Shown here in pieces: positions 45,898-63,239 of a DNA stretch of 64,000 bases. Source of the stretch: Spirochaetia bacterium (GTDB taxonomy: Bacteria; Spirochaetota; Spirochaetia; SZUA-6; Bin103). The stretch's first letter is position 1. Every line of letters starts with the position of its first letter. Made by a program: the position numbers and the translations under genes. The DNA lies in NCBI GenBank assembly GCA_965203905.1, contig CBDBDQ010000005.1, positions 2,880,001 to 2,944,000 on the forward strand. The letters are read 5' to 3'. The notes beneath the pieces were generated by a model that did no database searches, had not been told where the DNA came from, and saw nothing but the letters and a program-made list of their open reading frames with translations.

Positions 45898-45915
45898 TCG
45901 ACGGCGCGAAGAGAA

Positions 45916-45989
45916 CGGGGACGACGGGATTTGAACCCGTGGCCTCCGGCTTGACAAGCCGGCGCGATAACCATCTACGCCACGCCCAC
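45916..45989 (-). tRNA. tRNA-Asp(GTC), CCA not encoded
   Basis: Anticodon arm CCGGC-TTGTCAA-GCCGG, T arm ACGGG-TTCAAAT-CCCGT, acceptor GTGGGCG/CGTCCCC, discriminator G. Confidence 0.9.
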
Positions 45990-46005
45990 TGGTTGGAAGG
46001 CGATC

Positions 46006-46035
46006 AATATAGGATCCGTGGCAACCGGACGTCAA
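46006..46035 (-). promoter_or_regulatory. Putative sigma70 promoter of tRNA-Asp
   Basis: TTGACG-18 nt-TATATT on minus strand. Confidence 0.6.
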
Positions 46036-46142
46036 CTTTCGCTTCGTCGTGTTCGTCGTGGGTCACAAGGACATCTCCCGTTACCCAACCGTGGGCCGCA
46101 GGCCTGCTCCGTCTATGATCGGACGCGCGTGCAGCGCCGCGG

Positions 46143-47017
46143 TTACGTCGCCGCGGTCCGGCTCCGTACCGCCTCCAGGTTCAGCACCTGCATCGTCTCG
46201 TCTCCCATCGCCAACGCGTAGATCCCGTGCCGCGTCAGGTAGGTCACCAGGTCTTCCGGTATGCTCAGCGACGAGAACGCCGGCACGATCGGGACTGTCT
46301 CATATTCGGGATAGTACAGCCGGAATTCGCCGCTGCGCAGAAACTCTACGAACGCTCGCGCATACGAACGCACGCCTGGGGGCGAGGCGACGACTTGGTC
46401 TCGTTCAGCAACACCGCCCGCGTCCCGACGTAGAGCGCGTCGAACTCCCGCGTGCGGGAGCGGTCGTCGCTCCGCGTCACGGCCTGGCGCGTGGTGAAGC
46501 GTACCAGCTCGCCGCAGCCGAACACCTCGCGCGCCAGGCGCCGGACGCTCGGCGCCACGATGTCTTCCACCACCGTACCCATCTTGTTGGCCAGCTCGCC
46601 CCACCGCTTGTTCATCTCCCGCCGTTCGCGGGCGGCCTCCTCGCGGTCCTGAGCGGCTATCGCGCGTTCGCGCTCGCGTTCGCGGGCGGCTTCCTCGCGG
46701 TCCTGGGCGGCCATCGAGCGTTCGCGGGCGGCTTCCTCACGTTCGCGGACTCCCTCCTGCACATAGTGCTGGACGATACGCTCGAGGCGCGCGATAGACT
46801 CGTCGGTCCGTGCGACGGACTCGTTGGTCCGCGCGATAGACTCGTCGGTCCGTGCGACGGACTCATTGGTCCGCGCGATAGACTCGTCGGTCCGTACGAC
46901 GGACTCGTTGGTCCGCGCGATAGACTCGTCCGTGTGAGCCATGAAGCGGGCCAGGATGGACTCCAGATTGGCCACCCGCTCTTCGACCGCCCCTGTCCGT
47001 TGTGCAAGCGTAGCCAT
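46143..47017 (-). pseudogene. Coiled-coil plus PD-(D/E)XK-like protein, frameshifted near 46370
   Basis: WGELANKMGTVVEDIVAP, REFDAL, LNETKS; C-part continues in another frame. Confidence 0.65.
46788..46934. repeat. Seven 21-bp tandem units alternating A/B (TDESIAR/TNESVAR heptads)
   Basis: CGCGCGATAGACTCGTCGGTC alternating with CGTGCGACGGACTCGTTGGTC. Confidence 0.92.
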
Positions 47018-47164
47018 GGTGCCCCTGTCTGCCTCAGGGTAGCCCTGGGGCGGCTGCAGGACAAGTGCACCGGGGAGTGAGTGCGCCGGGCAGCATCAAT
47101 CGGGGCGGCGCGCGTGATGTGGCCGCCAGGCGCATCGCGGCAGCGTTCTCAGGCGCTTCAGTCG

Positions 47165-47197
47165 AAGGGTATCTTAATCGGCAGCGTGAGGGGATAA
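47165..47197 (+). repeat. Degenerate copy of permease 3' end (45865-45897)
   Basis: AAGGGTATCTTAATCGGCAGCGTGAGGGGATAA vs AAGGGCATCGTGATCGGCAGCGTGAAGGGATAG, 28/33 identical. Confidence 0.8.
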
Positions 47198-47221
47198 TTG
47201 CTGACAAGAAGGAGGCGGGAA

Positions 47222-48103
47222 ATGACCGACAGACAGGCGGTGCGGCCGGCGGTGGCCGCGGATGACTGGGACCGCCTGGCCGTGGCGCCGCTGCCAGAGC
47301 TGGACGGCGAGTATCCGCTCAGCGAGGCGCAGGTCGCGGGCTTCTGGGAGAACGGCTTCATCGTCCTGGAAGAGGTGCTCGACCGGGCCGAGATCAATGC
47401 CTACGGCGAGGCGATCCGCGACGTGGCGATGGCCCACTTCCGCGCCCGCAACCTGGCGCTGTCGTTCGGCGGCGCCTTCCTGCAGCAGCTCAACCTGCGC
47501 TACTGCTCGGACGCGGTACGCAGCTTCGTGCTCAGCCCGCGCTTCGGGCGCATCGCCAGCCGCCTGCTGCGCGCGCCCGCTGTGCGCCTGTACCACGAGC
47601 AGGCGCTGTTCAAGCCGCCCGGCGGCACCGACTCGCACTGGCACCAGGACCAGTACTACTTCCCGTTCGACGACACCTTCACCATGGGCCTGTGGATGCC
47701 GCTGGTGGACTGCTCGCTGGACATGGGCCCGCTGCGCTTCGTGGCCGGCTCCCACAAGTACGGCAACCTGGAGGGCATGTCGATCAGCGAGGAGTCGAAA
47801 CGCTTCTTCGACGACTTCATCGAGCGCGAGGGGCTGGAGGTGGTGCAGGTGCCGGGGCTCAAGGCGGGCGACTGCTCCATCCACCTGGGCTGGACCGTGC
47901 ACGGCGCGCCGGCCAACCGCACCGACAAGGTGCGCGAGGCGATGACCGCCAACTACTTTCCCGACGGCGCCCGCATCACCGACATGTCGCGCTCGCCGGA
48001 CGGGCTGCGTTTTGTCGGTGGCCTGCTGCCCGGCCAGCTCGCCAACAGCGTGATGAACCCGATCGTGTTCTCGGAAAACGGGTCGGAGGCGGACGCGAAA
48101 TGA
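47222..48103 (+). CDS. PhyH family Fe/2OG dioxygenase
   Basis: GFIVL, WHQD, GSHK, TVHGAPAN..R; AAGGAGG RBS. Confidence 0.88.
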   Translation: MTDRQAVRPAVAADDWDRLAVAPLPELDGEYPLSEAQVAGFWENGFIVLEEVLDRAEINAYGEAIRDVAMAHFRARNLALSFGGAFLQQLNLRYCSDAVRSFVLSPRFGRIASRLLRAPAVRLYHEQALFKPPGGTDSHWHQDQYYFPFDDTFTMGLWMPLVDCSLDMGPLRFVAGSHKYGNLEGMSISEESKRFFDDFIEREGLEVVQVPGLKAGDCSIHLGWTVHGAPANRTDKVREAMTANYFPDGARITDMSRSPDGLRFVGGLLPGQLANSVMNPIVFSENGSEADAK

Positions 48104-49641
48104 CCGGCCAGTGGAGCGCCGAGCAGGCCAACAAGTGGTTCGCCTCGATCCCGTTGCCGTTCGGCTGCAACTTCCTGCCGAGCACGGCGGTGAACAGCAC
48201 CGAGATGTGGCAGGCGGAGACCTTCGACGCCGCGACCATCGAGCGCGAGCTGCAGCTCGCCGCAGGGCTCGGCTACAACACGGTGCGCGTGTTCCTGCAG
48301 TTCATGGTCTGGGAGGCCGACCCGGCCGGCCACAACGAGCGCCTGGAAACCTTCTTGCGGCTGGCTGACGCGGCCGGCATCAGCATGATGCCGATCCTGT
48401 TCGACGACTGCCGCTTCGACGACCGCGACCCCTACCCGGGGCGCCAGGACGACCCCAAGCCGGGGGTGCACAACAGCCGCTGGACGCCGAGCCCCGGCTA
48501 TGCCACCGCCGACGACCCCTCACGCTGGGCGCAACTCGAAGCCTACGTCAGCGACGTGGTCGGGGCCTTCGGCAGCGACCGCCGGGTGCTGGTGTGGGAT
48601 CTGTACAACGAGCCGGGCGGGGATCGCCCCAAGGAGAGCCTGCCGCTGGTGGAGGCGGCATTCCGCTGGGCGCGCGCCGCCGATCCGCGGCAGCCGCTGA
48701 CCGTGGGCTCGTTCTTCTGGCACGACTACATGACCGAGATCCGGCTGTGCGGGGAACGCAACTCCGACGTGGTGTCGTTCCACAGCTACGGCAACCTGCA
48801 CGAGGTGCGCGAGCGCCTCGACGAACTGGAGCAGTACGGGCGCCCCGTGCTGTGCACCGAGTGGCTGGCGCGCCACCACGGCTCCAAGTTCGCCAGCCAC
48901 CTGCCGCTGTTCCGCGAGCGCAACGTCGGCGTCTACCAGTGGGGCCTGGTGGCAGGCCGCACCCAGACCTGGCTGCACTGGTACACCCGCTACAGCCCGG
49001 AGCCGGAGGGCGAGCCGCGCCTGTGGCTGCACGACGTGATACGGCCCGACGGCTCGCTATTCGACCCGGCCGAGGCCGACGCGCTGCGCGAACACGCCGG
49101 CCAGGACCTGGCACTGGAGCCGGTGCCGATGACCGCGCAACTCATGGCCCACCTGGAGGAGCTGGGACTGATCATCCGCCTGCGCCCCGGCGGCCACGAC
49201 CTGGCGGCGCAGCCGGGCGAGACGCTGGGCGAGTCGATATACGAGACCGCCGACCGCTACGGCCCGCACAAGCTGATCGCCGTCACCGTGAACCGCGCCG
49301 AGTTCGCCGCCTTCGGCAGCCACCCCGACAACGAGGAGTTCCTGCTGCTCGGCAACCCCGACAGCCAGCCGATGTACCTCGCCGTGGCCCTGTGCCTGCG
49401 CGAAGAGTTCGAGGACAAGCTGAAGACCGGCCGCCTGACCGCCGCCGACCTGGTGATGATCGAGTGCCGCTACAACGACCCCGAGGTGAGCTTCTTCGTG
49501 ATGCGCGCCGACGTCCCCCACGGCGAGGCGATCGTCCCGGCAGCGGGCAAGCCGCCCCCCAGCTTTTACGTCACCGAATCCCGCGACCTGCCCCTGGACC
49601 TCATCGACCTCCGCAAGTACCGCCTCCGGGTCGCACGCTGA
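48100..49641 (+). CDS. Clan GH-A (GH5-like) glycoside hydrolase fused to a cupin-like domain
   Basis: NTVRVFL, WDLYNEP (acid/base), SFHSY, CTEW (nucleophile); C-domain HPDNEE..PH. Confidence 0.8.
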   Translation: MTGQWSAEQANKWFASIPLPFGCNFLPSTAVNSTEMWQAETFDAATIERELQLAAGLGYNTVRVFLQFMVWEADPAGHNERLETFLRLADAAGISMMPILFDDCRFDDRDPYPGRQDDPKPGVHNSRWTPSPGYATADDPSRWAQLEAYVSDVVGAFGSDRRVLVWDLYNEPGGDRPKESLPLVEAAFRWARAADPRQPLTVGSFFWHDYMTEIRLCGERNSDVVSFHSYGNLHEVRERLDELEQYGRPVLCTEWLARHHGSKFASHLPLFRERNVGVYQWGLVAGRTQTWLHWYTRYSPEPEGEPRLWLHDVIRPDGSLFDPAEADALREHAGQDLALEPVPMTAQLMAHLEELGLIIRLRPGGHDLAAQPGETLGESIYETADRYGPHKLIAVTVNRAEFAAFGSHPDNEEFLLLGNPDSQPMYLAVALCLREEFEDKLKTGRLTAADLVMIECRYNDPEVSFFVMRADVPHGEAIVPAAGKPPPSFYVTESRDLPLDLIDLRKYRLRVAR

Positions 49642-49986
49642 CCTCACGGTAGCGGCGTCGTTGTGGCTGAGTGCTCTCACCGTTACCAGGGCTATAGCCG
49701 CAATCCTGAACCTGAGGACCGGCCTATCGATCCGCGCTACCCGGCAGACCTCTCCCAGGCTTGATCCCGTTCCGTAGAAGTGATACATATGATACATCAC
49801 TAACGTGACCGATGTGATCGAACGAATCCATAGCCCCTACACGTTGTGCAAAGGGATAGCATTCTGCGCCGAAAACGAATACGGGATCCTGATGCTGGTC
49901 TATCCCGGCGTGAGTCAGTCATACGCTACGCCCACTTTGATGTCGTCCCATCCTCACATTATGGTTCGTCAAGGAAGTAACTTATA

Positions 49987-51648
49987 GTGGTTTTCAAGGA
50001 ACATCAGACGCCACGTAAGCTTCGTGGTGGATACTACACACCACCTGAGCTTACAGACTTTCTCTGCCGCTGGGTAGCAAGGATTCGTCCAACCTCCCTC
50101 CTTGAACCAAGTTGTGGAGATGGGGCGTTCTTCGATAGCATTTCACGTCACCTCGATAATCCGTCTTTAGTCGCATTTGAGATAGACGACGGCGAGGCGG
50201 TACGAGCGCGTCAGAAAGCAAGCACTAATGGATTGACTCGAACAACGATCGAGACCAAGGATTTCCTTGGTTGGGCGTCGGAGGCGCTTCTGAACAAGAG
50301 TGCTGTATTCGACGCTATAGTCGGGAACCCTCCATTTATCCGCTATCAGTATCTCCCGCCTCGGTTCCAGCAACGTGCTGAGTTGGTATTCCGAGTGTTG
50401 GACTGCAAATTTACGCGACACACTAACGCTTGGGTGCCATTCGTGCTGGCGTCGTTAGCCTTGCTTCGGCCCGGTGGACGCATAGGGCTTGTAGTACCAG
50501 CAGAGATCATTCATGTCATGCACGCTCAATCTTTGCGAACTTATCTCGCTAGGAATTGCCAGCGTGTCGTAATCGTCGATCCAGAGGAACTCTGGTTTCC
50601 AGACACTCTTCAAGGTGCAGTCTTACTCCTTGCGGAGAAGCGTCGTGATTCTTGGGATCATGTAGAGGGAGTCGGGATCTACACTGTTCGAGGCATGGAG
50701 TTCGTAAACGATGATCCCGATCGGGTTTTCTATGGTGCTCAGACTAGCAATGGGAGGTCTATTCACGGTAAGTGGACTACCGCCCTTGTGGAACCTTACA
50801 TGCGTACGCTGCTAGACGCCTTGGCTGAGAACGAGGCCGTGCGACGTTTCGAGGATATCGCCGACGTAGATGTTGGGATAGTGACGGGAGCAAACAAGTT
50901 CTTTCTTGTGCCGGACGAGACGATCCGCACGTATGGTTTGGAGCAGTGGGCGCATCCGATGTTTGGACGGAGCGAACACTGTCCCGGCGTTATTTATGAT
51001 AATCAGCAGCACCAAGCGAACGCTGCACGGGGCAGTGCGACGAATTTCCTGTGGTTCCCCGACTCGGAGATCGAGAGCCATTCTGGGGCGCTAGCCTATG
51101 TCCGCAAGGGAGAAAACAGCCGACTTCATGTGCGCTATAAGTGTCGTATACGAAATCCTTGGTACAGCGTTCCATCGGTATATTCGACAGAGATTGGGAT
51201 GCTGAAGCGGGCACACAATACACCGCGGCTGATACTTAACAGCTTACGGGCATATACAACAGACACGGCGTACCGGGTGCGTATAAAGCAAGGCAGCAGC
51301 GAACAGCTCGTATATTGCTTTGTGAATGCACTTACCGCGCTGACGGCCGAACTCGTGGGGCGACACTACGGCGGTGGCGTACTTGAGCTTGTCCCGTCCG
51401 AGATCGAGAACCTATGGATCCCATTGCCATCCATAGTCGACGTGAATCTGGTGTTGTTGGATAGAATAGTTCGCACCTCGTCAATCGAGTCAGTTCTTGA
51501 GCAGCAGTCGAGACATGTTCTCGGCGCAATCGGCCTTCGCCCATACGAACAAGACGAACTACTCAGTTCATGGAAGAAACTCCGAGATCGACGCCACCGA
51601 AACATGTCTGGAGAACAAGACCGTACACCTAATCTATTTCCAGCGTGA
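49987..51648 (+). CDS. N6-adenine DNA methyltransferase, gamma class
   Basis: GGYYTP, LEPSCGDG (motif I) before GNPPF (motif IV), YGGGVLEL. Confidence 0.9.
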   Translation: MVFKEHQTPRKLRGGYYTPPELTDFLCRWVARIRPTSLLEPSCGDGAFFDSISRHLDNPSLVAFEIDDGEAVRARQKASTNGLTRTTIETKDFLGWASEALLNKSAVFDAIVGNPPFIRYQYLPPRFQQRAELVFRVLDCKFTRHTNAWVPFVLASLALLRPGGRIGLVVPAEIIHVMHAQSLRTYLARNCQRVVIVDPEELWFPDTLQGAVLLLAEKRRDSWDHVEGVGIYTVRGMEFVNDDPDRVFYGAQTSNGRSIHGKWTTALVEPYMRTLLDALAENEAVRRFEDIADVDVGIVTGANKFFLVPDETIRTYGLEQWAHPMFGRSEHCPGVIYDNQQHQANAARGSATNFLWFPDSEIESHSGALAYVRKGENSRLHVRYKCRIRNPWYSVPSVYSTEIGMLKRAHNTPRLILNSLRAYTTDTAYRVRIKQGSSEQLVYCFVNALTALTAELVGRHYGGGVLELVPSEIENLWIPLPSIVDVNLVLLDRIVRTSSIESVLEQQSRHVLGAIGLRPYEQDELLSSWKKLRDRRHRNMSGEQDRTPNLFPA

Positions 51649-52783
51649 AGTGGTCCGTCTCTTGGTACAGATACATCGATCGTCCGATAAGATCTTCTTT
51701 GGCAATCATATTCCGCACCTCGCCCCAGTGTAGCTGTGTCATGCTGTTTCCTTGACTATACGTCCGAGTGTCGGTGCGAGTATTGTGAGAGACCCGTAGG
51801 TTGAATATACCGTAATCGACATTACGTACAACAATCCTGAATCTAGCATCCGCGCGTTCGTAGTGCGTGAGCGTAGCGTCGATTATCCACGGCAAGCTTG
51901 AGAACACATCGTCTCGAAAATAGTGTCGTTGATCGATTCCCTCGATAGCTCCTTTCGAGAATAGCATTGATCCAGTGGGATTGGTGCTCGATGCAGTTGG
52001 TATATTTAGGTCTCGACGTGTGAGCGGGTTACTCTGCCACACAAGTTTCGAACGTAGCCTCGCATCAGAATCTCCTATGAGTTCCGCATCTTCAGGCGAC
52101 TGGTCCATTCTTTTTCTGCGGAAAGGAAACGCCGGCGTCTTGAGCGGCATTCTATTCAGCACATCTATCTCTGAGTAACTCGATCGCATTGTATGCTCTG
52201 GTGCAGGATCTGCCATCTCATCGACCACACGACCAGAATCAAAAAAACGCCGGATATCTTTGATATCGGAAATCAGACAAACGTGATCAGTGTACTCTGC
52301 CACAAGTTGTTGAAACACACCTTCGAGCTTCGAAGAAACGGCAGCGTCGCTATCGTTACATAACTCTAGCGTCAACGCAAGGCTAGCCTCTACATTTGAA
52401 ACTAGTCCGCCGAAAGTTAGGTTAGCACTACCAACTACTATGCGTGCTTCCTCACGGTTCCGCGCATAGTATACCTTAGGATGGAAGACGATGTTGCGAG
52501 ATCCGGTGTCGACAGTGTAAGTCCGGCAGCCTATGTCCATGCTCAATCTGAGCGCCTGTGCCGAAGTTATTCCGTTTCGAATACCCGCAAATACCGTTGT
52601 CGACTCTGCGATGGGTTCTATCGTGTCTTGCAGGATGGAGAGACCAGCCTTCGTCATGAACGCAGTGCTCAGCACTATCATCTGCGGCTCTGGAAGAGAT
52701 AGCAGGCTTTTTAGTAGGGCTAGGTGATTGTCGTGGACGACACCCTGTAGGAGGAACTTGGTCTTAGGCACTTTCGCTGACAC
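51629..52783 (-). CDS. PLD-family (HKD) restriction endonuclease
   Basis: FHPKVY, VGSANLT, NVEAS; convergent with the MTase. Confidence 0.8.
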   Translation of the reverse strand: MSAKVPKTKFLLQGVVHDNHLALLKSLLSLPEPQMIVLSTAFMTKAGLSILQDTIEPIAESTTVFAGIRNGITSAQALRLSMDIGCRTYTVDTGSRNIVFHPKVYYARNREEARIVVGSANLTFGGLVSNVEASLALTLELCNDSDAAVSSKLEGVFQQLVAEYTDHVCLISDIKDIRRFFDSGRVVDEMADPAPEHTMRSSYSEIDVLNRMPLKTPAFPFRRKRMDQSPEDAELIGDSDARLRSKLVWQSNPLTRRDLNIPTASSTNPTGSMLFSKGAIEGIDQRHYFRDDVFSSLPWIIDATLTHYERADARFRIVVRNVDYGIFNLRVSHNTRTDTRTYSQGNSMTQLHWGEVRNMIAKEDLIGRSMYLYQETDHFTLEID

Positions 52784-53017
52784 GATGGTTCGGTACGGAT
52801 TTATACAATAGTGTCGGCATTGGGCCCTGCGGAGGTTAGCCGTTTACTCGCTACTCTCGGCCGCATGTAATTTCGGCTATCTTCAGGATAGGACGAAACC
52901 GTGCGGGGCGTAGAGACAACGTACAGGAATGCGCGTTAACGTAGCAATCAGGTCAGGGCCTACGAACAGCGTGCGGGTGGCCTGATGCGTTTGCGTCGAA
53001 GAAATTGAAACTGGACC

Positions 53018-53634
53018 GACTCTGACCGTGCCGTCGTTCCACAGCTACGGCGCCCCCAAGGAGGTGCGCGGGCACCTCGACAAGCTGGAGGAGTACGGTT
53101 GCCCCGCCGCAGTACATGGAGCGGCGGCGCGGCACCACGGCGCCAAGTTTCGCAGCCACGCGCCACTGTTCCGCGAACGCAACGTCTGCATCTACCAACT
53201 GGGATTGGTGGCGGGGCGCACGTAGGCGTTGCTTTCACTGTGGTACACCCGCTACAGCCCGGAGCCGGGGCGCGAGCCGCGCTTGTGGCTGCACGACGTG
53301 ATGCGGTCCGACGGCTACTGCTCTACCCCGGCCGAGGCCGCCGCCCTGCGCCAACACCCCCGGCGAGGGCCTCGGCGCTGGAGCCGATGTCGATAACGCC
53401 GAAGCTGCTGGAGCACCCAGAAAAGCTTCAGATTGATCAACCGCCTATGGCCCCGTCGGCCACGACGTGGCCGCACAGCTGGGCGAGGCCCTCGGCTACG
53501 AAACTGCCGATCGCTAACGGCATGCGCATACTTATAGCCGCGACCGTGAACCACGCCGAGCTCGCCGCATCAAGCACTACCCCGACACCGAGAAGTGCAT
53601 GCTGATCGGAGTCCCGACAGCCAGCCGAGATACC
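53018..53634 (+). pseudogene. Heavily decayed internal copy of the GH-A/cupin gene (matches ~48760-49380)
   Basis: SFHSYG, RHHGAKF, LFRERNV, TGGTACACCCGCTACAGCCCGGAGCCGG retained; many stops and indels. Confidence 0.85.
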
Positions 53635-53838
53635 CTGTCGTGACGATAGTGCGGTCGACGCCCCTATGACGATCTAGTGTAGTCCGCGAACAGAACCTGC
53701 GCCACTCACGCCTGTCCCGCCAACGCACACTATGAGCGTCACAGTCCATCACGGACGCTCCTTGCTTGCGACGCCACCGGCTGCTTTATTGTCGTAACAC
53801 CTACCACTGTCCCAACAAAATCGCAACAAGGCAAGTCA

Positions 53839-56015
53839 ATGACCAGTATCACCGTTTCCCTCAAGAATTGCTACGGTATTCGTAAGCTTGATCACCGATT
53901 CGACTTCCGCGACCGAGACGCATATTCTATATACGCTCCGAACGGCTCTATGAAGTCCTCTTTTGCCCAGACTTTCAAGGATCTTGCCGAAGGAACATCA
54001 TCTTGCGACAGGATTTTCCCGTCACGCGAAACGACGCGTCTGATTATAGATGAAACAGGCACGGAAATATCAAACGAACAAATCCTCGTCCTACCGCCAT
54101 ACGACGAGTTTTTAGCCACAACGAAAAGACCTCCACTCTACTCGTAAACAACACCCTCCGCCAAGAATACGAACTACTGCACGCGGACATCGAGAAGTCG
54201 AAGACTGATTTCCTATCTGCTATGAAGGACCAGTCAAGATCAAGGAAGCCGCTCGAGGCCGAAATCGCGCTGACCTTCACGAAAGGAAATGATGAAGAAT
54301 CTTTCTACGTCGCTCTTGAACGCATTGCTCCTGAGATAGAAGACCAGTCCCACGCACCATTTGCCGACGTTCCCTACGACATAGTATTTGATCCCAAGGT
54401 ACTCGAAGCACTCGCGTCAAGCGATTTACGATCCGCTATCGAAGACTACATTACTCGCTATAATCAGGTAATTGAGTCTTCCAAATACTTTGCTCAGGGT
54501 ATCTTCGAACATTACAACGCAGCTCAGATTGCCAAGAACCTTGCTTCCAATGGGTTCTTCAGTGCCCGACACACAGTTACTCTAAACGCTACCAAAAAAA
54601 TGGTGATATCCTCCAAGAAGCAGCTCGAGGACCTAGTCGCGGGTGAGCTATCTGAGATCACAAAAGACAGCCAGCTGAAGAAACGTTTCGCGGCTGTCCG
54701 AAAACAGTTGGAACGCAACCTGCAACTACGTCAGTTCCAGCGATACCTGTGTTCCAACGTCCTACTTCTCCCACACCTTTCTAACGTGGAGCTTTTTAGG
54801 GAACAAGTGTGGAAGTCATATTTCAAAGCTAAGGAGCCTGTATACGCCGAACTCCTGTCAAAGTACAGGATGGTCAAGGCTCGTCGTAAGGAAATCGAAC
54901 AGGAGGCACAGAAAGAGCAAACGCTGTGGGAAGACGCGATCCATCTCTTCAACGATCGATTTTTTGTACCCTTCACGCTCTACGCCAAGAACAAAGCGGC
55001 CGTGATGTTGCGGGGCGAAGACGACCTTGAGCTCGGGTATAGGTTTCGGGACGGCAATGATGAGGTCGAGGTGCCGCGCGACGAGCTGATGAAAACCCTT
55101 AGTCAGGGCGAGAAGAAGGCTCTCTATATTCTAAACATAATTTTCGAGATAGAAGTTCGTCGGAAGAACCAACAAGAGACACTATTCGTGGTTGACGACA
55201 TAGCAGATTCCTTTGACTATAAGAACAAGTACGCTATCATACAATACCTTCAGGATGTCTCGGATGTGCCGAATTTTCGACAGATCATATTGACGCACAA
55301 CTTCGACTTCTTTAGGACGATTAGCAGTCGGTTCGTGGGTTACGCCGGATGTCTGACGGCAACGAAGTCGAGTGACGGGGTGGCGCTGTCCCAGGCGTTT
55401 GGGATTCGGAACCCGTTTCTGCGTGATTGGAAGCACGAGTTCTTCGTTGATCCCAAGAAGCGGATCGCATCGATCTCGTTCATGCGCAACCTTGTCGAGC
55501 ACGTATTCGGCGAGTCGGATCCAAACTACTTACGACTGACATCGCTTCTACATTGGAAGACTGACTCGCTAGCCATAACACAGTCAGATCTGGATAGGAT
55601 CTACGCGAATGTTTTTTCTTCAAACGGGTCGCGGTTCACGAACGGAAATGAACCCGTGGTTGATATGATCAAGAGGGAGGCGAACGATTGCCTCAGCGCG
55701 CGTTCCGGAATCAATTTCGAAAACAAGATCGTGCTCTCGATCGCCATTAGATTGAGCTCGGAGCGTTTCATGGCTGGCATGATTAGTGACTCTGTGTTTC
55801 TCGCCGAACTTGGAAGGAATCAAACGAATGCTCTCTTGAAGAGGTTCATACAAGATTTTGGATACCGTGACGAACAGATACGCATATTGAGGAAGGTCAT
55901 GCTCATGACGCCAGAGCATATACACCTTAACGCGTTTATGTATGAGCCTATTCTCGATATGTCAGATGATTCGCTGAGAGCATTGTACCGTGAAGTACAG
56001 AACCTGTCGCTTTGA
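53839..56015 (+). CDS. ABC/AAA ATPase (RloC/PrrC-like architecture), frameshift at T5 54109-54113
   Basis: YAPNGSMKSS, LSQGEK, VVDDIADSFD, LTHNFDF; one extra T joins the two ORFs. Confidence 0.78.
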
Positions 56016-56150
56016 TTTGAGCGGGTCTTGACTCGCCTGCAACCGGTGATGGTTCCGGTGGGATGCACGATCTGGTGCACTCTCTATTGGTTGAAAGAGG
56101 GGATGGTTGGCGCGGCCCGGAGTGAGTCCGTGGCTCAATGTGGCACGAAT

Positions 56151-58088
56151 GGCCTGTGGATGCCGCTGGTGGACTGCTCGCTGGACATGGGCCCGCTGCG
56201 CTTCGTGGCCGGCTCCCACAAGTACGGCAACCTGGAAGGCATGTCGATCAGCGAGGAGTCGAGACGCTTCTTCGACGACTTCATCGAGCGCGAGGGGCTG
56301 GAGGTGGTGCAGGTGCCCGGTCTCAAGGCGGGCGACTGCTCCATCCACCTGGGCTGGACCGTGCACGGCGCGCCGGCAAACCGCACCGACAAGGTGCGCG
56401 AGGCGATGACCGCCAACTACTTTCCCGACGGCGCCCGCATCACCGACATGTCGCGCTCGCCGGACGGGCTGCGTTTTGTCGGTGGCCTGCTGCCGGGCCA
56501 GCTCGCCAACGGCGCCATGAACCCGATCGTGTATTCCGAGAAGGGCGCGGAGGCTCAGACCAAGTGAAGGAGCAGTGGAGCGCCGAGCAGGCCAACGAGT
56601 GGTTCGCGTCGATCCCGTTGCCGTTCGGCTGCAACTTCCTGCCGAGCACGGCGGTGAACAGCACCGAGATGTGGCAGGCGGAGACCTTCGACGCCGCCAC
56701 CATCGAGCGCGAGCTGCAGCTCGTTGGCCGGGCTCGGCTACAACACGGTGCGCGTGTTCCTGCAGTTCATGGTGTGGGAGGCCGACCCGGCCGGCCACAA
56801 CGAGCGCCTGGAGATTTTCTTGAGGTTGGCCGACGTGGCCGGCATCACGATGATGCCGATCCTGTTCGACGACTGCCGCTTCGACGACCGCGACCCCTAC
56901 CCGGGGCGCCAGGACGACCCCAAGCCGGGGGTGCACAACAGCCGCTGGACACCGAGCCCCGGCTACGTCACCGCCGATGACCCCTCACGCTGGCCGCAAC
57001 TCGAAGCCTACGTCAGCGACGTGGTCGGAGCTTTTGCCAGCGACCGCCGGGTGCTGGTGTGGGACCTGTACAACGAGCCGGGCGGGGACCGCCCCAAGGA
57101 GAGCCTGCCGCTGGTGGAGGCGGCATTCCGCTGGGCGCGCGCCGCCGATCCGCGGCAGCCGCTGACCGTGGGCTCGTTCTTCTGGCACGACTACATGACC
57201 GAGATCCGGCTGTGCGGGGAACGCAACTCCGACGTGGTGTCGTTCCACAGCTACGGCAACCTGCACGAGGTGCGCGAGCGCCTCGACGAGCTGGCGCGCT
57301 ACGGCCGCCCGCTGCTGTGCACGGAGTGGCTGGCGCGCCACCACGGCTCCAAGTTCGCCAGCCACCTGCCGTTGTTCCGCGAGCGCAACGTCGGCGTCTA
57401 CCAGTGGGGCCTGGTGGCAGGCCGCACCCAGACCTGGCTGCACTGGTACACCCGCTACAGCCCGGAGCCGGAGGGCGAGCCGCGCCTGTGGCTGCACGAC
57501 GTGATTCGGCCCGACGGCTCGCTGTTCGACCCGACCGAGGCCATCGTGCTGCGCGAACACGCCGGCGAGGACCTGGCACTGGAGCCGGTGCCGATGACCG
57601 CGCAACTCATGGCCCACCTGGAGGAGCTGGGACTGGTCATCCGCCTGCGCCCCGGCGGCCACGACCTGGCGGCGCAGCCGGGCGAGACGCTGGGCGAGTC
57701 GATCTACGAGACCGCCGACCGCTACGGCCCGCACAAGCTGATCGCCGTCACCGTGAACCGCGCCGAGTTCGCCGCCTTCGGCAGCCACCCCGACAACGAG
57801 GAGTTCCTGCTGCTCGGCAACCCCGACAGCCAGCCGATGTACCTCGCCGTGGCCCTGTGCCTGCGCGAGGAATTCGAGGAAAAGGTCAAGACCGGCCGCC
57901 TGTCAGCCTCCGACTTGGTGATGATCGAGTGCCGCTACAACGACCCCGAGGTGAGCTTCTTCGTGATGCGCGCCGACGTCCCCCACGGCGAGGCGATCGT
58001 CCCGGCAGCGGGCAAGCCGCCCCCCAGCTTCTACGTCACCGAATCCCGCGACCTTCCCCTGGACCTCATCGACCTCCGCAAGTACCGC
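56151..58088 (+). repeat. Near-identical direct repeat of 47687-49623 (5'-truncated phyH plus GH-A/cupin with +1 frameshift near 56723)
   Basis: Colinear from GGCCTGTGGATGCCG to AAGTACCGC; 1938 vs 1937 bp. Confidence 0.95.
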
Positions 58089-58523
58089 ATGCGTATAACG
58101 ATCACCCGAGTCTCGCAACGCCCCGTACCACTTCCCACCCTCAGCGACCACTCCAGCACGTAGCGCTTCAAGCACCGTCATTACGGGCTTTGACCGAACT
58201 GCGGTCGCGCATACGACGCAGGTAGGAGGGGTCACCTGGGCCGCACCGGCCTCCACCTCCCAAAGCACAGAGGCCGATTTGGTCGAACCGGACAGCGCCC
58301 ATCCCCCTCCGACCCTCCCAACCGCGGCTGCTGACGCACCTCCTTACGGACCGCCACCATAGTCACCGTCCGATCGAAACGAAGCGATGTGAAGCAGCTG
58401 GGCACGATGCTACCCGTCATCGCACTCCAGAACCGGCACACTCCACTCGCAACGCCCCATACCATAGCTTGCACCATGCTAGGCGTCGATCTATCCTATG
58501 CCATACGGAGGACGCAAATCGCA

Positions 58524-60953
58524 ATGACCGTGGCCGATGAAAGCCCAGAACTACTACTTAGCATTCCCCAGTCCGAGAAAATAAAACGGCTGTCCAACAT
58601 GTCAGAGCAGGACTTTCGCGACAAGATCGTTCGGCCCCTGTTCCTTATGTTAGGATACCAAGACGGACGCGAATTGCACGGCCCCGACGAGCAAGGGAAA
58701 GATATCCTATTTGTCGAAGAAGACAAGCTCGGCGGAAAACGGATCATATGTGTGCAAACAAAAAAGGGAAAGATCACCATGGCGTCAAGACACTCTGAAA
58801 ACATACAGGACGTCATTACACAACTTCGCATGGCGTTGAATACTCGCGTATCACACCTTGAGAGCAGACAGCAATACTATCCTCATGACGTCTTTCTTTG
58901 TACCAGCGGGATCATCAATACGAACGCACGTCGTCATATAGTAACCGAACTGGACCGGGACCGACGGATAGAATTCCTGGATGCGCAATCGATAGTCAAT
59001 CTCGTCGACCAGAAATGCCCACAACTATGGCAGGGAATTAGTGCTGATATCTTCGCGCACTACGATACGATTCGCAAGCATGTCGAGTACAATACGTCGG
59101 ATATTATCGATCCGGGAGCGGCTAACGATGCTACTTTCGTGCAGCTTACATTTTATCGCGAAATAGAGAAGCCAGTAAAGAAGGGTGGCAATGTCCGTAG
59201 TGGACTTGAGTTCGAAGAAAAGAAGATCCATGACCTCATACACCAAGACGCTGCCACGGTGCTGATTGTCGGTGATGCCGGCAGCGGAAAGAGCACGGCT
59301 CTGTGGCGCATCGCGTATGAGATTGTGCGTCAAGACCGTGGCAGGGGATACCGAATCCCAATACTCCTGTTCTCCCGCGACCTTTCGCACAAGATCTCGA
59401 GTACTGAAGATGTGGTCGCCGAAATGCAGCGTCTATCGTGCGAGTTTTCATCGGTCAAGCAGGATCTCTTCCAATCGCGAGACATCGCCGAGGGTCGCAT
59501 CACGCTCCTAGTCGACGGAGTAGATGAGATTGCTGACTCCGTACGGCGCAATAGACTCGTACAAATCTTGTGTGAATTCCGAACCAAGTATCCGAGATGT
59601 TCGGTAATTGTAACAACGCGGCCAGACGGGAAGACCAAACAGTACTTCCGGGAGCACCGCCTAAAGATCTACAACGTGGCGCCTATCAGTTGGCGCCAAG
59701 TGAGAAGGATCATCACGCAGGTGCTGGCCGCCCGGCGCTTCACAGAGGGACAGTTGGAGAGTATCACGAGTGGCGCCCACAACGTCTTGCGACAGATAGA
59801 GGAAGTCCACGGCTTCCAGATTACTCCGCTCCTGGCCACAGTGTATGCCGCATCGGCGGACTACTCGCGGAGTGATATCCCTGCAAATATCACTGAGCTC
59901 TTCAAGAAGTACACTGAACTCATGTTGGGTCGATGGGATGAGCAGAAGGGGCTGTCACAGCAGTACCGCGCACCGTTAAAGGACTTTATCCTCAAGAAGG
60001 TCGCCTATGAGATGCACCGCAACAGATTACTGTACGTCACACGAGAGAACTTTACCGCGATGGTGAAGGAGCTTTTGACCGAGCGGGGCCATAGATTGGA
60101 GACACAGGAGATCGAAGACGAGCTGCTTGGCCGATCGCGTCTGTTGCGAGTGAGGCGCGAGGGCGTTGGATTTGCACACGTTCTCTTACAAGAGTTCTTC
60201 GCGGGTCGCTCAATGCCACCTAACATGGTCGAATCATACGTCAGTGACTCATGGTGGACTAAATCCATTGTATTCCATTATGGTGAGAACCCGGAACATG
60301 CTGGACATCTCCGCAAAGTTCAACAGAACGTGATGCAACGTAAGGATCAGAGTACGGTGTCGTATCGTGCTATCGGATTGGGTCTTCAAGCAGCGTACTT
60401 GTCGTTGCTGTCCGATAAGGTAGCGATCTGGTTGAATGTCGTCGCAAAATTGTCGGAATTCATGGCGACATATTTCGAAGATGGTGGACAACGGAGGTTG
60501 TTTCCGCTGACGGAGATGACTGTGAGCTACCTAGGGCTTCGTGACGCGGTGGCCTTTTCTTCGTTGTCAGACAAGGACGTTAGATCTCAGGTATTGGAGC
60601 ACTTTCGTAATCGGTACAAGAAGCCCGACCATGATGTGACCGAAGCTATGCACTTTTGGTATGTCATCGCTTTGCTAGAGAGCGGATTTACAGAGCAGGC
60701 TGAGGAAATGCTGAGCCGTTACAGATTTTGCGATCTGAGATACTACTTGTGGATTGTGATGGGTGCAAGGTTTATTGAGAAAATCCTTCCGGTTAGTCGA
60801 GAACAGAAAGAGACAGCACGGAGGATTCAACAGAACTATGAAGATCATGTTCGTGAGAATATGAAAGAATTAATGCGAGAGTTTCACGATTCCATGCTAC
60901 TTGAAATGAAGGGCGAGAGAGTTGTAGAGGTTCCTGACCAAGCGGACGAGTGA
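58524..60953 (+). CDS. Restriction-endonuclease-fold plus NACHT NTPase protein
   Basis: HGPDEQGKDI..VQTK, GDAGSGKS, LLVDGVDE, TTR, TPLL, FAHVLLQEFFA. Confidence 0.85.
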   Translation: MTVADESPELLLSIPQSEKIKRLSNMSEQDFRDKIVRPLFLMLGYQDGRELHGPDEQGKDILFVEEDKLGGKRIICVQTKKGKITMASRHSENIQDVITQLRMALNTRVSHLESRQQYYPHDVFLCTSGIINTNARRHIVTELDRDRRIEFLDAQSIVNLVDQKCPQLWQGISADIFAHYDTIRKHVEYNTSDIIDPGAANDATFVQLTFYREIEKPVKKGGNVRSGLEFEEKKIHDLIHQDAATVLIVGDAGSGKSTALWRIAYEIVRQDRGRGYRIPILLFSRDLSHKISSTEDVVAEMQRLSCEFSSVKQDLFQSRDIAEGRITLLVDGVDEIADSVRRNRLVQILCEFRTKYPRCSVIVTTRPDGKTKQYFREHRLKIYNVAPISWRQVRRIITQVLAARRFTEGQLESITSGAHNVLRQIEEVHGFQITPLLATVYAASADYSRSDIPANITELFKKYTELMLGRWDEQKGLSQQYRAPLKDFILKKVAYEMHRNRLLYVTRENFTAMVKELLTERGHRLETQEIEDELLGRSRLLRVRREGVGFAHVLLQEFFAGRSMPPNMVESYVSDSWWTKSIVFHYGENPEHAGHLRKVQQNVMQRKDQSTVSYRAIGLGLQAAYLSLLSDKVAIWLNVVAKLSEFMATYFEDGGQRRLFPLTEMTVSYLGLRDAVAFSSLSDKDVRSQVLEHFRNRYKKPDHDVTEAMHFWYVIALLESGFTEQAEEMLSRYRFCDLRYYLWIVMGARFIEKILPVSREQKETARRIQQNYEDHVRENMKELMREFHDSMLLEMKGERVVEVPDQADE

Positions 60954-61468
60954 CGCGAATGGGACAATTGGGTTTTGGGAATCGTACCGTCGCCATTCCA
61001 TGCCGCTCGCGAGACGACGCGGCCGATCAGGTCCAGCTTGAGCACACCTGCACGATACGCGGTGCGACGCGATCTAGCTCACGCGGGGACATGAACCGCG
61101 CAACAAGCCCGCGGTGTCGGCAAGGCCAACGACGGCGGCGTCGCGCGGGTGCGGAATGGCGTCGCTGAACAGTATCGCCATGATCCGTCGCCTACGTCCC
61201 GGTCTGTCGCGGGGTCGCCGGTCGGGTAGCGTTGCGGCGGAAATACCCACAGGAACCGCCCCTCGCGACGATGGAGGTTGCCACGGTCGACGAGACGTTT
61301 CAATACACGGGCCCCGATGAGATGCGCCTGATCTGCTTGCGGATAGTGCAAGGGTTCGGGTAGGCTGTGCTTGTTGAACAACAAGCAACGAAGGCTGGCC
61401 TCGTGCTACCGTCTTCACGGATCCGGTGTCGGTCACCGCAGCGGGCGAGAGCGTGCTTGTGCACCTCC

Positions 61469-61789
61469 ACGAGCAACACCATGACCTACAAGGGGTATGC
61501 GGCCCGGATCGAGTATGACGACGACGGAATGTTTACGGGACGGATCGCAGGAATACGGGAAGGTGTGGGTTCCATGCCGATTCGGTGGAGGGCCTGAGAC
61601 AAGCCTTCCACGAAGCAGTCGAGGATTACCTCGCGATCTGCGCCAAGATAGGCAAGGAGCCCCCAGAAGGCGTACTCGGTCCGGGTTCCGTGTCAACCCG
61701 GAAACGCACCGCAAGGCTGCTCTGGCGGCTGAACTGTTCGGCAAGAGTCTGAACCTGGGCCGAAGAGGTGCCGGAGCGCGCCGCGGCTG
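61469..61789 (+). pseudogene. Decayed HicB-family antitoxin
   Basis: MTYKGYAARIEYD..FHEAVEDYL..PETHRKAA..KSLN split across frames. Confidence 0.75.
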
Positions 61790-61852
61790 AGGGGTAGGCG
61801 CCGATCTCAACGATCTCACGCCCACGAGTGTGCTTGCTTGGCGTCCCTTTCG

Positions 61853-61990
61853 CTATCGAAGCACGGTACGGAGCCGGTCGATGGCTGCCTGCAGTGTCTC
61901 GAGGGAGCGGCAGAGGGCGAATCGCAGGTAGCGCTCGCCCTGGCGTCCGGTAGTGTAGAAGTTGTCGCCCGGTACCGTGGCCACCCCAGC
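61853..61990 (-). pseudogene. Orphan C-terminus of a class I/II PLP aminotransferase
   Basis: GVATVPGDNFY..YLRFALCRS.ETL.AA.DRL. Confidence 0.65.
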
Positions 61991-63239
61991 CCGCAGGAGC
62001 CCTCGGCGGCAGACCGCGAGGGCTTCTGCCAACACCGTCGCGCTGCCCCTCATTTTCACATCGCCCTGATGCACAGCGGCAGAGGCCAAGTCGTAGGCGT
62101 TCCGCAGACTGTCCCAAACACGGCGCCTGTCAGCGGGGTCTTCGCCGACGAGCCACGCCCCCGACGCCGCAAGACGGAACTTCAACTCCTGCTGGGGTTT
62201 CTCGGGTAGGAACAACGATTCAAGCGCGATACGGAGATCCAATGAACCGATCAGGGCGCCTGCGAGTATTGTCTTTTGCCATTTTCCATCGAGACACAGC
62301 CACGCGAATGCGAGCGTCCGCACGATGCAGTTGTCCGACAAGAAACCCAAGATTCTCCGCTGAGACATCTCGGATACCCTCGACGTCCACTTCGATACGG
62401 CCTTCGCGAGTCTCAAGGTCTTTCGATTCGCCCTTGAAGTGCCGCAGATGGCCAAGCGATCCGCGACCACGTATCCTGTGCTTTGCGAGGGCGTAATACT
62501 CACCGTAGTCATCCCAGGTTAGCCCCCGATCGACAAACATGTCACATTCCAGCGACAACGCTTCGCGGATGGTTTCCAGCGTGACCTGCGGAATCAGCGA
62601 CGGCCGCAAGTACCCCGTCTTTGGGCTCGGGCTTGACGGTCGGAAAAGTGCGGGCCTCGTTTCAGCAGCGATTGAGATAAGACACTGACCCAAGTAGTCG
62701 GTTCGGGGCCTCCCATGGTGGACAGGCAACCCGCCTGGAAGTTCCTGGGTGGACAATGCAAGAGGAATGATGTCAACGCCCTCGATCGGAGACAGCCTCC
62801 GAGTCAACGTTATGGGGACAACGGTACAAGTACGGTAGTTCATCGGCGCTCCACCCACCCAATCTGCGATCAGCCCCGCCACCCGCTCACATCCAGTCAC
62901 CGCAGCGCATCTGGTCAGCGAATCGGCGAGTTCCTCGAACGAAGAATACTGGGCCTCGGTATACAATTCCTCCTTCTCGACTTTCACCACGCCCCCACGA
63001 TCGCCTCCCATTGGGAAAGCGTGGCCAACACTGTCAGTCGAGTGATCTATGTAATCGTGCAGGAGTCTTCGCAGTGCTTCTGCAAGGCCGTTCCGAGAAT
63101 TCCGTCTCCATTCGAACCATGGGTATGTGACCGCGCGCAACTGAGTTGTACTCCGATCTCGACCGTTCGTAGAGCTCGCGAAGGGCCTTAGCGTCGAGCG
63201 TCTCCTCCGGGCGGCCAGCGCAACTCGAGACGCTTCCAT
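61991..63239 (-). pseudogene. ApeA-like HEPN-domain protein, frameshift near 62240, start uncertain
   Basis: RW..DRFIDLRIALESLF..FRLA..YDLASAAVHQG. Confidence 0.65.

What the first reader, a model, noticed from the sequence alone, without database searches (positions are those of the whole stretch)
47687..60953. Defence cassettes stacked behind serial copies of one metabolic gene, with no integrase
Seen: three same-orientation copies of the GH-A/cupin gene: intact (48100-49641), heavily decayed (53018-53634) and near-identical with truncated phyH (56151-58088). Each is followed within about 200-450 bp by a different lower-GC defence-type cassette: MTase plus PLD nuclease, ABC-ATPase/HEPN-like, and REase-NACHT. 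No integrase, transposase or attC-like site is visible. Inference: the 3' flank of this gene is a variable defence slot, and alleles from relatives were added by homologous recombination using the metabolic gene as anchor. Differing decay would record acquisition order. The 1.9-kb repeats could also excise or amplify the first two cassettes as an 8.46-kb unit.
Basis: partly seen in the sequence, partly recalled or inferred. Interest (0 to 1): 0.85.

Follow-up and report, generated by a model that had tools for sequence, protein, structure and literature searches.

The report
Defence genes stacked behind repeated anchor gene
An 11.8-kb stretch with three different anti-phage gene sets sits behind a sugar-metabolism gene, and two leftover copies of that gene suggest whole versions of the locus from related bacteria were added side by side by recombination, without any mobile-element enzyme.

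Summary
Window 47687-49623 and 56151-58088 are 95.7% identical over 1940 nt, and 53019-53628 is a 77% fragment. Each copy precedes a different low-GC cassette: a type II methyltransferase with a PLD nuclease, a frameshifted PDC-S46 gene, and an Mrr-NACHT gene.

Relatives G007 and G004 keep both flanks but carry other cargo. G004, and one contig of an independent run, join the GH stop codon directly to a hicB-like remnant at 61465. The island is therefore 49642-61464. No tyrosine integrase lies within about 165 kb, and no shared junction motif was found.

Copies 1 and 3 are sister sequences that diverged under purifying selection (dN/dS 0.22), including the truncated phyH piece. One copy therefore most likely came from a related lineage.

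Plain double crossover would replace a cassette, not stack it. The best model is one homologous anchor plus one illegitimate join, or a Campbell-type single crossover. Which flank was the anchor is unresolved.

A BREX island elsewhere in the genome shows the same pattern. This is a new variant of known processes and is moderately interesting.

The parts
47198..48103 (+). Intact phyH (PhyH dioxygenase). The likely true start is near 47222, where homology to relatives begins.
   Evidence: Pfam PhyH 2.3e-30; relatives align from 47222.
48100..49641 (+). Anchor copy 1: intact GH5-like gene, 513 aa. The C-terminal 180 residues are of unknown fold.
   Evidence: Pfam Cellulase 2.7e-9. Full-length orthologues at 87-92% identity in 7 of 40 relatives.
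47687..49623 (+). Left 1.94-kb repeat. It starts inside phyH and ends 18 nt before the GH stop.
49987..51648 (+). Cassette A: type II N6-adenine DNA methyltransferase (M.Eco57I-like).
   Evidence: Pfam M_Eco57I_C 1.4e-84; PADLOC MTase_II 1.6e-188.
51629..52783 (-). Cassette A: PLD-domain protein, the putative restriction nuclease, convergent with the methyltransferase.
   Evidence: PLDc_2 scores 21.4 bits, below the 27-bit cut-off. PADLOC REase_II 3e-4. PDB 2c1l (titled restriction endonuclease) E=0.039. Weak support.
53019..53650 (+). Anchor copy 2: internal GH fragment (equivalent to 48765-49395), with many indels.
   Evidence: 77% identity; alignment and long branch of 0.42; dS 0.49, dN/dS 0.53.
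53839..56015 (+). Cassette B: PDC-S46 candidate defence ATPase, split by one frameshift near 54105-54120.
   Evidence: PADLOC PDC-S46 2.9e-32 (profile positions 1-92) and 9.2e-214 (positions 127-718 of 719); frames.
56151..58088 (+). Anchor copy 3 (right 1.94-kb repeat): 5'-truncated phyH (to 56567) plus GH with a 1-nt insertion near 56725 and the last 6 codons replaced.
   Evidence: Pfam PhyH on 56028-56567 covers profile positions 128-213 only.
58389..60953 (+). Cassette C: Mrr_cat restriction-nuclease domain fused to a NACHT NTPase and a C-terminal region (STAND-type defence architecture).
   Evidence: Pfam NACHT 9.6e-14, Mrr_cat 4.9e-6; PADLOC hits are only weak.
61079..61384 (-). GPP34-like gene fragment inside the GC-rich tail of cassette C. 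It is 79% identical to a stretch beside an integrase gene on contig C3, but is not itself a recombinase.
   Evidence: Pfam GPP34 1.7e-7.
61481..61790 (+). hicB-like antitoxin pseudogene. This is the sequence that directly follows the GH stop in G004 and in a contig of run X1, so it marks the right edge of the island.
   Evidence: 61467-61548 is 85% identical to G004 immediately after its GH stop. Pfam HicB 3.7e-5. X1 joint 49641>61465.
49642..61464 (.). The whole island: three cassettes plus two extra anchor copies, 11.8 kb.
61849..61994 (.). 146-nt duplicate (85%) of the 3' end of the right-flank aminotransferase gene at window-equivalent 69701-69847.

Best explanation
The 3' end of a phyH-GH5 sugar-utilisation operon is an accessory-gene hotspot with no recombinase. 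In the ancestral state the GH stop codon was followed directly by a hicB-like gene.

Different lineages of this group each acquired their own cassette there. On two occasions DNA from a diverged relative, carrying a piece of the anchor operon plus that relative's cassette, was added to the resident locus instead of replacing it.

This needs homologous pairing at one end only. The other end is either an illegitimate join (homology-facilitated illegitimate recombination) or the result of a single Campbell-type crossover of a circularised fragment. Each event left a 5'-truncated anchor copy in front of the cassette that now lies to its right.

**Shown:** the structure, the empty-site form, the absence of a recombinase gene, and purifying-selection divergence of the copies.

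**Inferred:** the recombination mechanism. Whether the left (phyH-GH) or the right (hicB and beyond) flank served as the homologous anchor is open, and so is whether the leftmost or the rightmost cassette is the newest.
For: 1. Structure and coordinates.
2. Empty-site form: G004 has the hicB-like remnant 1 nt after its GH stop, 85% identical to 61467-61548. One contig of the independent run X1 joins 49641 to 61465 with 11 letters between.
3. Same flanks, other cargo in G007 and G004.
4. No PF00589 match in the window (0 of 29 genome matches). No significant shared motif among the 6 junction segments. Weak inverted repeats in only 2 of the 6.
5. Copies 1 and 3 are sisters (100/100) with branches of 0.024 and 0.031, against 0.017 and 0.024 for the two species G004 and G006.
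6. dN/dS of copy 1 against copy 3 is 0.22 for GH (35 synonymous, 26 non-synonymous, 508 codons) and 0.21 for the phyH piece. Orthologues between species give 0.16-0.27.
7. The combined counts reject an omega of 0.6, which is what one neutral copy would give, at p=1.4e-5. The phyH piece alone gives p=0.023.
8. Polarised with 6 outgroups, the copy-3 branch has 22 synonymous and 21 non-synonymous changes, p=1e-4 against neutrality. The truncated phyH part has 9 and 6.
9. Reads: the unique cassettes are at depth 9.1 and 9.3, the repeat at about 19, and contigs run from the cassettes into the repeat.
10. The pattern recurs. A BREX cluster of 14.2 kb at C5:883943-898139 lies between a broken copy and an intact copy of a DegT aminotransferase gene (994 nt, 94.2%, dN/dS 0.20).
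Against: - No donor allele (GH with only one of the cassettes) was found. PDC-S46 was found in 0 of 40 relatives. NACHT was found in G019 (55%), with a fragment in G001. PLD was found in G011, G015 and G019 (about 50%). None of these lies beside a GH gene.
- A metagenome scan returned no GH relative above 53% identity.
- The dN/dS signature would also arise if both GH copies stayed functional in one genome for a long time, or if a later allelic replacement overwrote one copy.
- The phyH-only test rests on 22 changes.
- The copy-3 branch has a somewhat higher non-synonymous share than copy 1 (0.49 against 0.38; Fisher p=0.47).
- Microhomology at the 56150/56151 junction is only patchy, and the pre-insertion sequence is unknown.
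- The ThrS-locus duplicate gives omega 0.61 and the gene beside it 0.36. Not every such repeat in the genome carries the signature.
- Junction contigs reach 30 letters into the repeat, not 31, and the X1 joint has a side of only 24 letters.
Confidence: 0.6

Rival explanations
1. [quoted passage not shown] The anchor was duplicated within this genome when a cassette inserted. The 4.3% difference arose later, either while both copies were still under selection or through later allelic replacement of one copy by recombination with a relative.
For: Restriction-modification genes flanked by long direct target repeats with no mobility genes are a described class, with repeats of 46-423 bp in the tables I read (PMC2853133, passages). 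The unit between the 1.94-kb repeats begins with a restriction-modification pair. GH copy 3 has only one frameshift, so it may have been functional until recently.
Against: The truncated phyH piece cannot have been functional after truncation, yet it shows 13 synonymous and 9 non-synonymous differences (omega 0.21, p=0.023 against 0.6). On the copy-3 branch it shows 9 and 6. This model needs two events where one suffices. The copies are as diverged as two separate species, while the low-GC cassettes remain unameliorated.
Confidence: 0.17
2. Site-specific mobile elements that target the 3' end of the GH gene and carry a replacement gene end. Their recombinase acts in trans or has been lost.
For: The break in synteny lies exactly at the GH stop codon in all 8 relatives printed. 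Duplicated gene 3' ends also flank two neighbouring inserts: 47 nt of the permease gene and 146 nt of the aminotransferase gene. The genome has 29 PF00589 matches elsewhere.
Against: The island has no recombinase gene and no shared junction motif. The repeats are 0.6-1.9 kb long and begin at different internal points (inside phyH; inside GH), unlike att sites. Cassette C joins 18 nt inside the gene, while cassette A starts after the stop. Cassette C carries a fragment of an unrelated GPP34-like gene, a scar of an earlier context.
Confidence: 0.1
3. Assembly artefact. Two strain haplotypes of the locus were strung in series, or the 8.46-kb unit is really a separate circle.
For: Relatives' records are titled as metagenome-assembled genomes. 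G000 has 7.9% estimated contamination. The last 33 nt of the repeat are identical in both copies, so the short-word contigs cannot link a given set of copy variants to a given exit. Those contigs are equally compatible with a chromosome holding one copy plus an equimolar circle.
Against: The new junction, from the end of cassette B into the middle of phyH, is present in contigs with 0 differences. It has the same depth (9.1) as cassettes A, B and C (9.1-9.3), and the repeat is at about twice that depth. The same cassettes and the GH3-NACHT junction contig occur in a second sample, X10, with 0-1 differences. C5 is a 7.79-Mb contig.
Confidence: 0.06

Closest known systems
Arrays built by homology-facilitated illegitimate recombination: Vibrio cholerae T6SS orphan-immunity arrays, and Rhs/CDI C-terminal displacement (Kirchberger et al. 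2017, PMC5361080; passages read)
   Same: Cassettes from other strains are added serially next to a conserved anchor. Older modules are kept and displaced rather than replaced, remnants of the conserved gene lie between modules, and no integrase is involved.
   Different: Here the anchor is an unrelated metabolic operon, not part of the cargo system. The remnants are kb-sized (1.94 and 0.63 kb). The cargo is three unrelated anti-phage systems. The direction of anchoring is unresolved.
Insertion of restriction-modification genes with long target duplication (Furuta, Abe and Kobayashi 2010, PMC2853133; passages read)
   Same: Restriction and modification genes in an insert under 20 kb, without mobility genes, flanked by long direct repeats that align to a single copy in an empty-site genome. 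The repeats could allow amplification.
   Different: Repeats in the tables I read are 46-423 bp and mostly near-identical. Here they are 1.94 kb at 95.7%, with a between-lineage (purifying-selection) pattern of differences. The unit also carries a second cassette and an older anchor fragment.
MGE-free defence hotspots between conserved core genes: P. aeruginosa cDHS1/2 (Johnson et al. 2023, PMC10250203; passages read) and Neisseria minimal mobile elements (Bentley et al. 2007, PMC1797815; passages read)
   Same: Conserved flanking genes, different cargo at the same place in different genomes, low GC, no consistent mobile-element genes. Exchange through flanking homology has been proposed.
   Different: Those models predict replacement without scars. 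This locus keeps scars (anchor copies) that show addition. Both flanks are conserved in only 2 of 9 relatives fetched, so 'core hotspot' holds only for the nearest species.

Membership tests
Insertion with long target duplication (RM mobility class) | R and M gene homologues inside the insert | tested here: inconclusive
   The M gene is strong (PADLOC 1.6e-188). The R candidate is a PLD protein below the Pfam cut-off (21.4 against 27 bits), with PDB 2c1l at E=0.039.
Insertion with long target duplication (RM mobility class) | Insert under 20 kb, no mobility genes, direct repeats over 30 bp that align to one copy in an empty-site genome | tested here: met
   The gap between the repeats is 6.5 kb and the whole island is 11.8 kb. 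There is no integrase. G007 and G004 have a single copy.
Insertion with long target duplication (RM mobility class) | The repeats are duplicates of the recipient's own target | tested here: not met
   95.7% identity with dN/dS 0.22; the copy-3 branch is non-neutral (p=1e-4). Alternative readings are not excluded.
HFIR-built cassette array (T6SS immunity / Rhs type) | Serial cassettes separated by remnants of the conserved anchor gene | tested here: met
   Copies at 48100, 53019 and 56151, each before a different cassette.
HFIR-built cassette array (T6SS immunity / Rhs type) | Remnants derive from other strains' alleles rather than from local duplication | tested here: inconclusive
   The selection signature and tree favour it. 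No donor allele was found in 40 relatives or in a metagenome scan.
HFIR-built cassette array (T6SS immunity / Rhs type) | Microhomology at the illegitimate junction | tested here: inconclusive
   Similarity left of 56151 is patchy, and the pre-insertion partner sequence is unknown.
MGE-free core defence hotspot / minimal mobile element | Both flanking genes conserved, with different cargo between genomes | tested here: met
   G000, G007 and G004 share the left flank and the right flank from 63444-63626 on. Their cargo is 13.8, 15.7 and 6.1 kb and unrelated. This holds for 2 of 9 relatives fetched.
MGE-free core defence hotspot / minimal mobile element | No mobile-element genes in the slot | tested here: inconclusive
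   None in G000. G004's slot holds an IS4-type DDE transposase.
Integron | IntI integrase and attC hairpins at cassette ends | tested here: not met
   No PF00589 match in the window. Weak inverted repeats in 2 of 6 junctions and no shared motif. No attC covariance model was available.
tRNA-targeting integrative island | Integrase plus att repeats derived from a tRNA gene | tested here: not met
   tRNA-Asp at 45916-45989 is real (62 bits). It lies in a separate 1.26-kb insert upstream of phyH. No integrase is present and no repeat of it lies in the island.
PDC-S46 (PADLOC candidate system) | Full-length match to the family profile in one open frame | tested here: not met
   The match covers profile positions 1-92 and 127-718 of 719, but in two frames.
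STAND/NACHT anti-phage proteins (bNACHT / Avs-like) | NACHT NTPase with an N-terminal effector domain | tested here: met
   NACHT 52 bits (cut-off 26.7); Mrr_cat 27.1 bits (cut-off 21).
STAND/NACHT anti-phage proteins (bNACHT / Avs-like) | Membership of a validated defence family model | tested here: inconclusive
   PADLOC Avs2 3.4e-5 and PDC-S60 9.4e-6. NCBIfam DS8_antiphage scores 20.8 bits against a 790-bit cut-off.

The most novel reading that the evidence does not exclude
Homology-anchored stacking is a general route, needing no recombinase, by which this lineage builds islands. A cassette travels with a piece of its neighbour gene as its own homology arm. It is added beside the resident allele, and the leftover anchor copies form a datable record of successive acquisitions. 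The 8.46-kb unit between the 1.94-kb repeats could loop out as a circle carrying anchor plus cassettes and re-enter any relative by a single crossover. That would make it a minimal 'homing by homology' mobile unit.
Probability: 0.2. Interest if true: 0.7.

Novelty: new variant of a known kind. Interest (0 to 1): 0.45.

Why it matters
How defence hotspots that lack mobile-element genes are built is stated as an open question for the P. aeruginosa core hotspots (PMC10250203, Discussion passage). Exchange through flanking homology is usually assumed, but it leaves no trace.

This locus keeps the traces. It has kb-sized anchor copies whose pattern of differences points to import from diverged relatives, an identifiable empty site, and one clear illegitimate junction. 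That turns the question into testable predictions:
- single-cassette alleles should exist in sister strains;
- one flank should share ancestry with one anchor copy.

It also shows that resident systems can be kept when a new one arrives, so defence repertoires can grow by addition. The same signature at a BREX island and at loci with metabolic cargo suggests the process is general horizontal-transfer mechanics rather than something specific to defence.

Tried and rejected
**Searches for donors and alleles**
- Metagenome scan with the GH protein: 80 loci kept, best identity 53%. No close alleles, so no donor test was possible.
- The family holds only 24 genomes, and all were already searched.
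No habitat or strain statement is drawn from them.

**Fold and family checks**
- GH C-terminal 'cupin' label: Pfam, NCBIfam and the Atlas gave nothing.
- An AlphaFold model built from 8 near-identical sequences had mean pLDDT 39, so no fold search was run.
- PDB sequence searches of the PLD, GH and NACHT proteins gave only weak hits.

**Leads that turned out not to bear on the question**
- The 61099-61333 match beside an integrase on contig C3 looked like an att or integrase remnant. It is a GPP34-like gene fragment.
- GH fragments in the sister genus (G013:C1, G018, G020) looked like hitch-hiking anchor scars. They are deletion remnants in a conserved native context.
- The orthologous locus of the BREX/DegT island in G004 shares only the DegT gene, so no empty site could be shown there.
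- Copy 2 could not be placed in the tree (branch 0.42).

**Limits of the read evidence**
- Read depth in X10 is too patchy to phase alleles.
- No joint for the 8.46-kb deletion or circle was listed, but contigs cannot show rare forms. This is no evidence either way.

**Supplements.** No supplementary files were opened. Supplementary tables of PMC2853133 and PMC10250203 may list longer repeats or scarred hotspots that I did not see.

**Literature searches.** Searches found no description of defence islands stacked with kb-sized copies of a flanking metabolic gene. This is six keyword searches, not proof of absence.

Full report
**Setting.** The window is G000:C5:2880001-2944000. C5 is a 7.79-Mb contig of a 7.99-Mb genome with 66% GC. 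Records of the nearest relatives are titled 'MAG: Spirochaetia bacterium'. The family holds 24 genomes in the collection, and all were searched.

**Observation.**
- A self-BLAST confirms three same-strand copies of one segment. 47687-49623 and 56151-58088 are 95.7% identical over 1940 nt, and 53019-53628 is 77-78% identical to both.
- The left repeat edge lies inside phyH. The right edge lies 18 nt before the GH stop codon.
- Copy 1 keeps the native end that relatives share. Copy 3 has a foreign tail and a 1-nt insertion near 56725.
- Copy 2 is an internal piece, equivalent to 48765-49395, with many indels.
- GC drops from about 0.69 in the copies to 0.47-0.54 in between.

**Cassettes.**
- A: an M.Eco57I-like methyltransferase (PADLOC 1.6e-188) convergent with a PLD-domain protein. 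Its assignment as the nuclease is weak.
- B: PDC-S46, matched over nearly the whole profile but split by one frameshift.
- C: an Mrr_cat-NACHT protein, followed by a GC-rich tail that holds a GPP34-like gene fragment.

**Limits of the island.**
- G007 and G004 share the left flank (an ABC sugar transporter, phyH and GH). They also share a right flank that begins at 63444-63626. Between the flanks they carry 15.7 and 6.1 kb of unrelated DNA.
- In G004 a hicB-like remnant starts 1 nt after the GH stop. Its homologue in G000 is at 61467-61548 (85%).
- One contig of an independent run, X1, joins 49641 to 61465 with 11 letters between. Its shorter side is only 24 letters, below the tool's 30-letter caution.
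- Together these two observations define an empty site and an 11.8-kb island, 49642-61464.
- The stretch from 61.5 to 63.4 kb is a patchwork that includes a 146-nt duplicate of the 3' end of the right-flank aminotransferase gene.

**Survey of relatives.**
- 7 of 40 relatives have a full-length GH gene, and 8 more in the family have only fragments.
- The sequence after the stop codon differs from G000 in all 8 relatives printed.
- Of 8 relatives whose downstream genes I scanned, 3 have defence-type genes:
  - G007: a GmrSD-like protein (PADLOC Orf5 1.6e-191) and an NYN/HEC-09 protein.
  - G010: RadC, SLFN/AlbA_2 and a Mod/Res pair.
  - G009: a PDC-S01 fragment.
- The other 5 do not:
  - G004: an HNH protein, a desaturase and an IS4 transposase.
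  - G008 and G017: aldo-keto reductases.
  - G013: a binding protein and a helicase.
  - G001: a PRiA4_ORF3-like protein.
- G005 and G006 were not scanned.

**Is it an artefact?**
- In run X9 a 6582-nt contig covers 49599-56180 without a difference at depth 9.1. A second covers 58059 onwards at depth 9.3. The repeat reads at about 19.
- A second sample, X10, holds the same cassettes with 0-1 differences.
- These contigs end 30 letters inside the repeat, one short of the tool's own bridging rule. This would be the k-1 overhang of a k=31 graph, although the tool does not state Logan's k. They cannot phase the copy variants.
- Long reads were not available to me.

**Mechanism.**
- No tyrosine recombinase is near.
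- No motif is shared by the six junction segments, and hairpin-like repeats are weak and present in 2 of 6.
- Copies 1 and 3 are sisters in the tree, but as far apart as two species of the genus.
- Their differences are mostly synonymous. dN/dS is 0.22 for GH and 0.21 for the truncated phyH piece, the same as between orthologues of different species (0.16-0.27).
- An omega of 0.6, expected if one copy had drifted neutrally since a local duplication, is rejected (p=1.4e-5 for both parts together, p=0.023 for phyH alone).
- With six outgroups the copy-3 branch has 22 synonymous and 21 non-synonymous changes (p=1e-4 against neutrality), and the copy-1 branch has 18 and 11. Ten sites could not be polarised.
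- Most of the divergence therefore arose while both were working genes, most simply in separate lineages.
- Copy 2 (dS 0.49, dN/dS 0.53) fits import from a more distant relative followed by decay.

**Why not plain homologous recombination.** A double crossover in both flanks replaces cargo. Stacking needs one homologous end plus one illegitimate join, or a single crossover of a circle. Three variants give the observed order:
1. Left-anchored: the incoming DNA is copy 1 plus cassettes A and B, and the resident is copy 3 plus cassette C.
2. Right-anchored: the reverse.
3. Campbell-type single crossover of a circularised fragment.

In all three, copy 2 was truncated before copy 3. The order in which the cassettes arrived differs between them. 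I could not tell the variants apart.

**Generality.**
- On C5, 95 direct-repeat pairs meet the thresholds (at least 300 nt, at least 85% identity, 1.5-25 kb apart). Four of them have host-GC repeats around a gap with GC of 0.58 or less.
- A BREX cluster just above that GC threshold lies between a broken and an intact DegT aminotransferase gene (994 nt, 94.2%, dN/dS 0.20).
- A threonine-synthase locus has 1599-nt repeats at 95.9% around unknown ORFs, with omega 0.61 and 0.36.
- A fourth locus carries metabolic cargo.
- The process is therefore not specific to defence genes.

**Comparison with what is known.**
- The closest mechanism in print is homology-facilitated illegitimate recombination, proposed for T6SS orphan-immunity arrays and Rhs displacement (PMC5361080, passages).
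- The closest structural class is restriction-modification insertion with long target duplication (PMC2853133, passages).
- The closest ecological concept is the MGE-free core defence hotspot or minimal mobile element (PMC10250203 and PMC1797815, passages).
- This locus differs in three ways: the anchor is an unrelated metabolic operon, the scars are kb-sized, and the scars carry a between-lineage signature.

**Verdict.** It is a new variant of known processes. Interest is 0.45.

Noticed in passing
window 45865-47211: A 1.26-kb insert between the second ABC permease gene and phyH. It carries a real tRNA-Asp(GTC) gene (45916-45989, minus strand; one of two in the genome) and a 223-aa ORF with 21-nt periodic repeats (46346-47017). 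It is flanked by a 47-nt, 77% duplicate of the permease 3' end. It is absent in G007 and partly present in G004.
   Followed up: partly
window 61849-61994 and window-equivalent 69701-69847 (L038:5701-5847): A 146-nt, 85% duplicate of the 3' end of the right-flank class I/II aminotransferase gene. G017 has that gene directly at the edge of its slot. G007 and G004 lack the extra fragment.
   Followed up: partly
G000:C5:882950-899131 (L129): A 14.2-kb BREX-type cluster (BrxL, PglX-like methyltransferase, weak sub-threshold DUF6079 match) lies between a broken and an intact copy of a DegT aminotransferase gene (994 nt, 94.2%, dN/dS 0.20). No integrase match is nearby. No empty site could be shown in G004.
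   Followed up: partly
G000:C5:1096816-1103569 (L130): 1599-nt repeats at 95.9%, covering a truncated threonine-synthase-like gene plus its neighbour, flank a 3.6-kb lower-GC insert with two ORFs that have no family match. dN/dS is 0.61 and 0.36.
   Followed up: partly
G000:C5:5827815-5851186 (L131): 979-nt repeats at 87% flank 21 kb of low-GC metabolic cargo (peptidases, enolase-superfamily enzyme, ABC permeases, GDSL lipase, BNR protein). The cargo contains internal 2-kb repeats at 97%.
   Followed up: partly
window 14555-17578: Two tandem amidase genes (490 and 500 aa, minus strand), 88% identical over 1.48 kb.
   Followed up: partly
relatives G001, G005, G014, G017, G018, G020, G021, G023: In 8 of 23 other family genomes the GH gene survives only as fragments. 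In G018, G020 and G013:C1 these are deletion remnants in a conserved native context, so the gene is being lost repeatedly.
   Followed up: partly
window 49643 (run X10): In the second sample, one contig follows the GH stop codon with a sequence unlike G000 and unlike the 8 relatives printed. This is possibly a further allele of the slot in the same community.
   Followed up: no
window 24821-28808 and 34636-41167; 34006-34467: Two lower-GC3 peptide/sugar ABC transporter clusters, with a 212-nt 76% repeat between them, and a Mutator-family transposase fragment. The wider region upstream also looks horizontally acquired.
   Followed up: no
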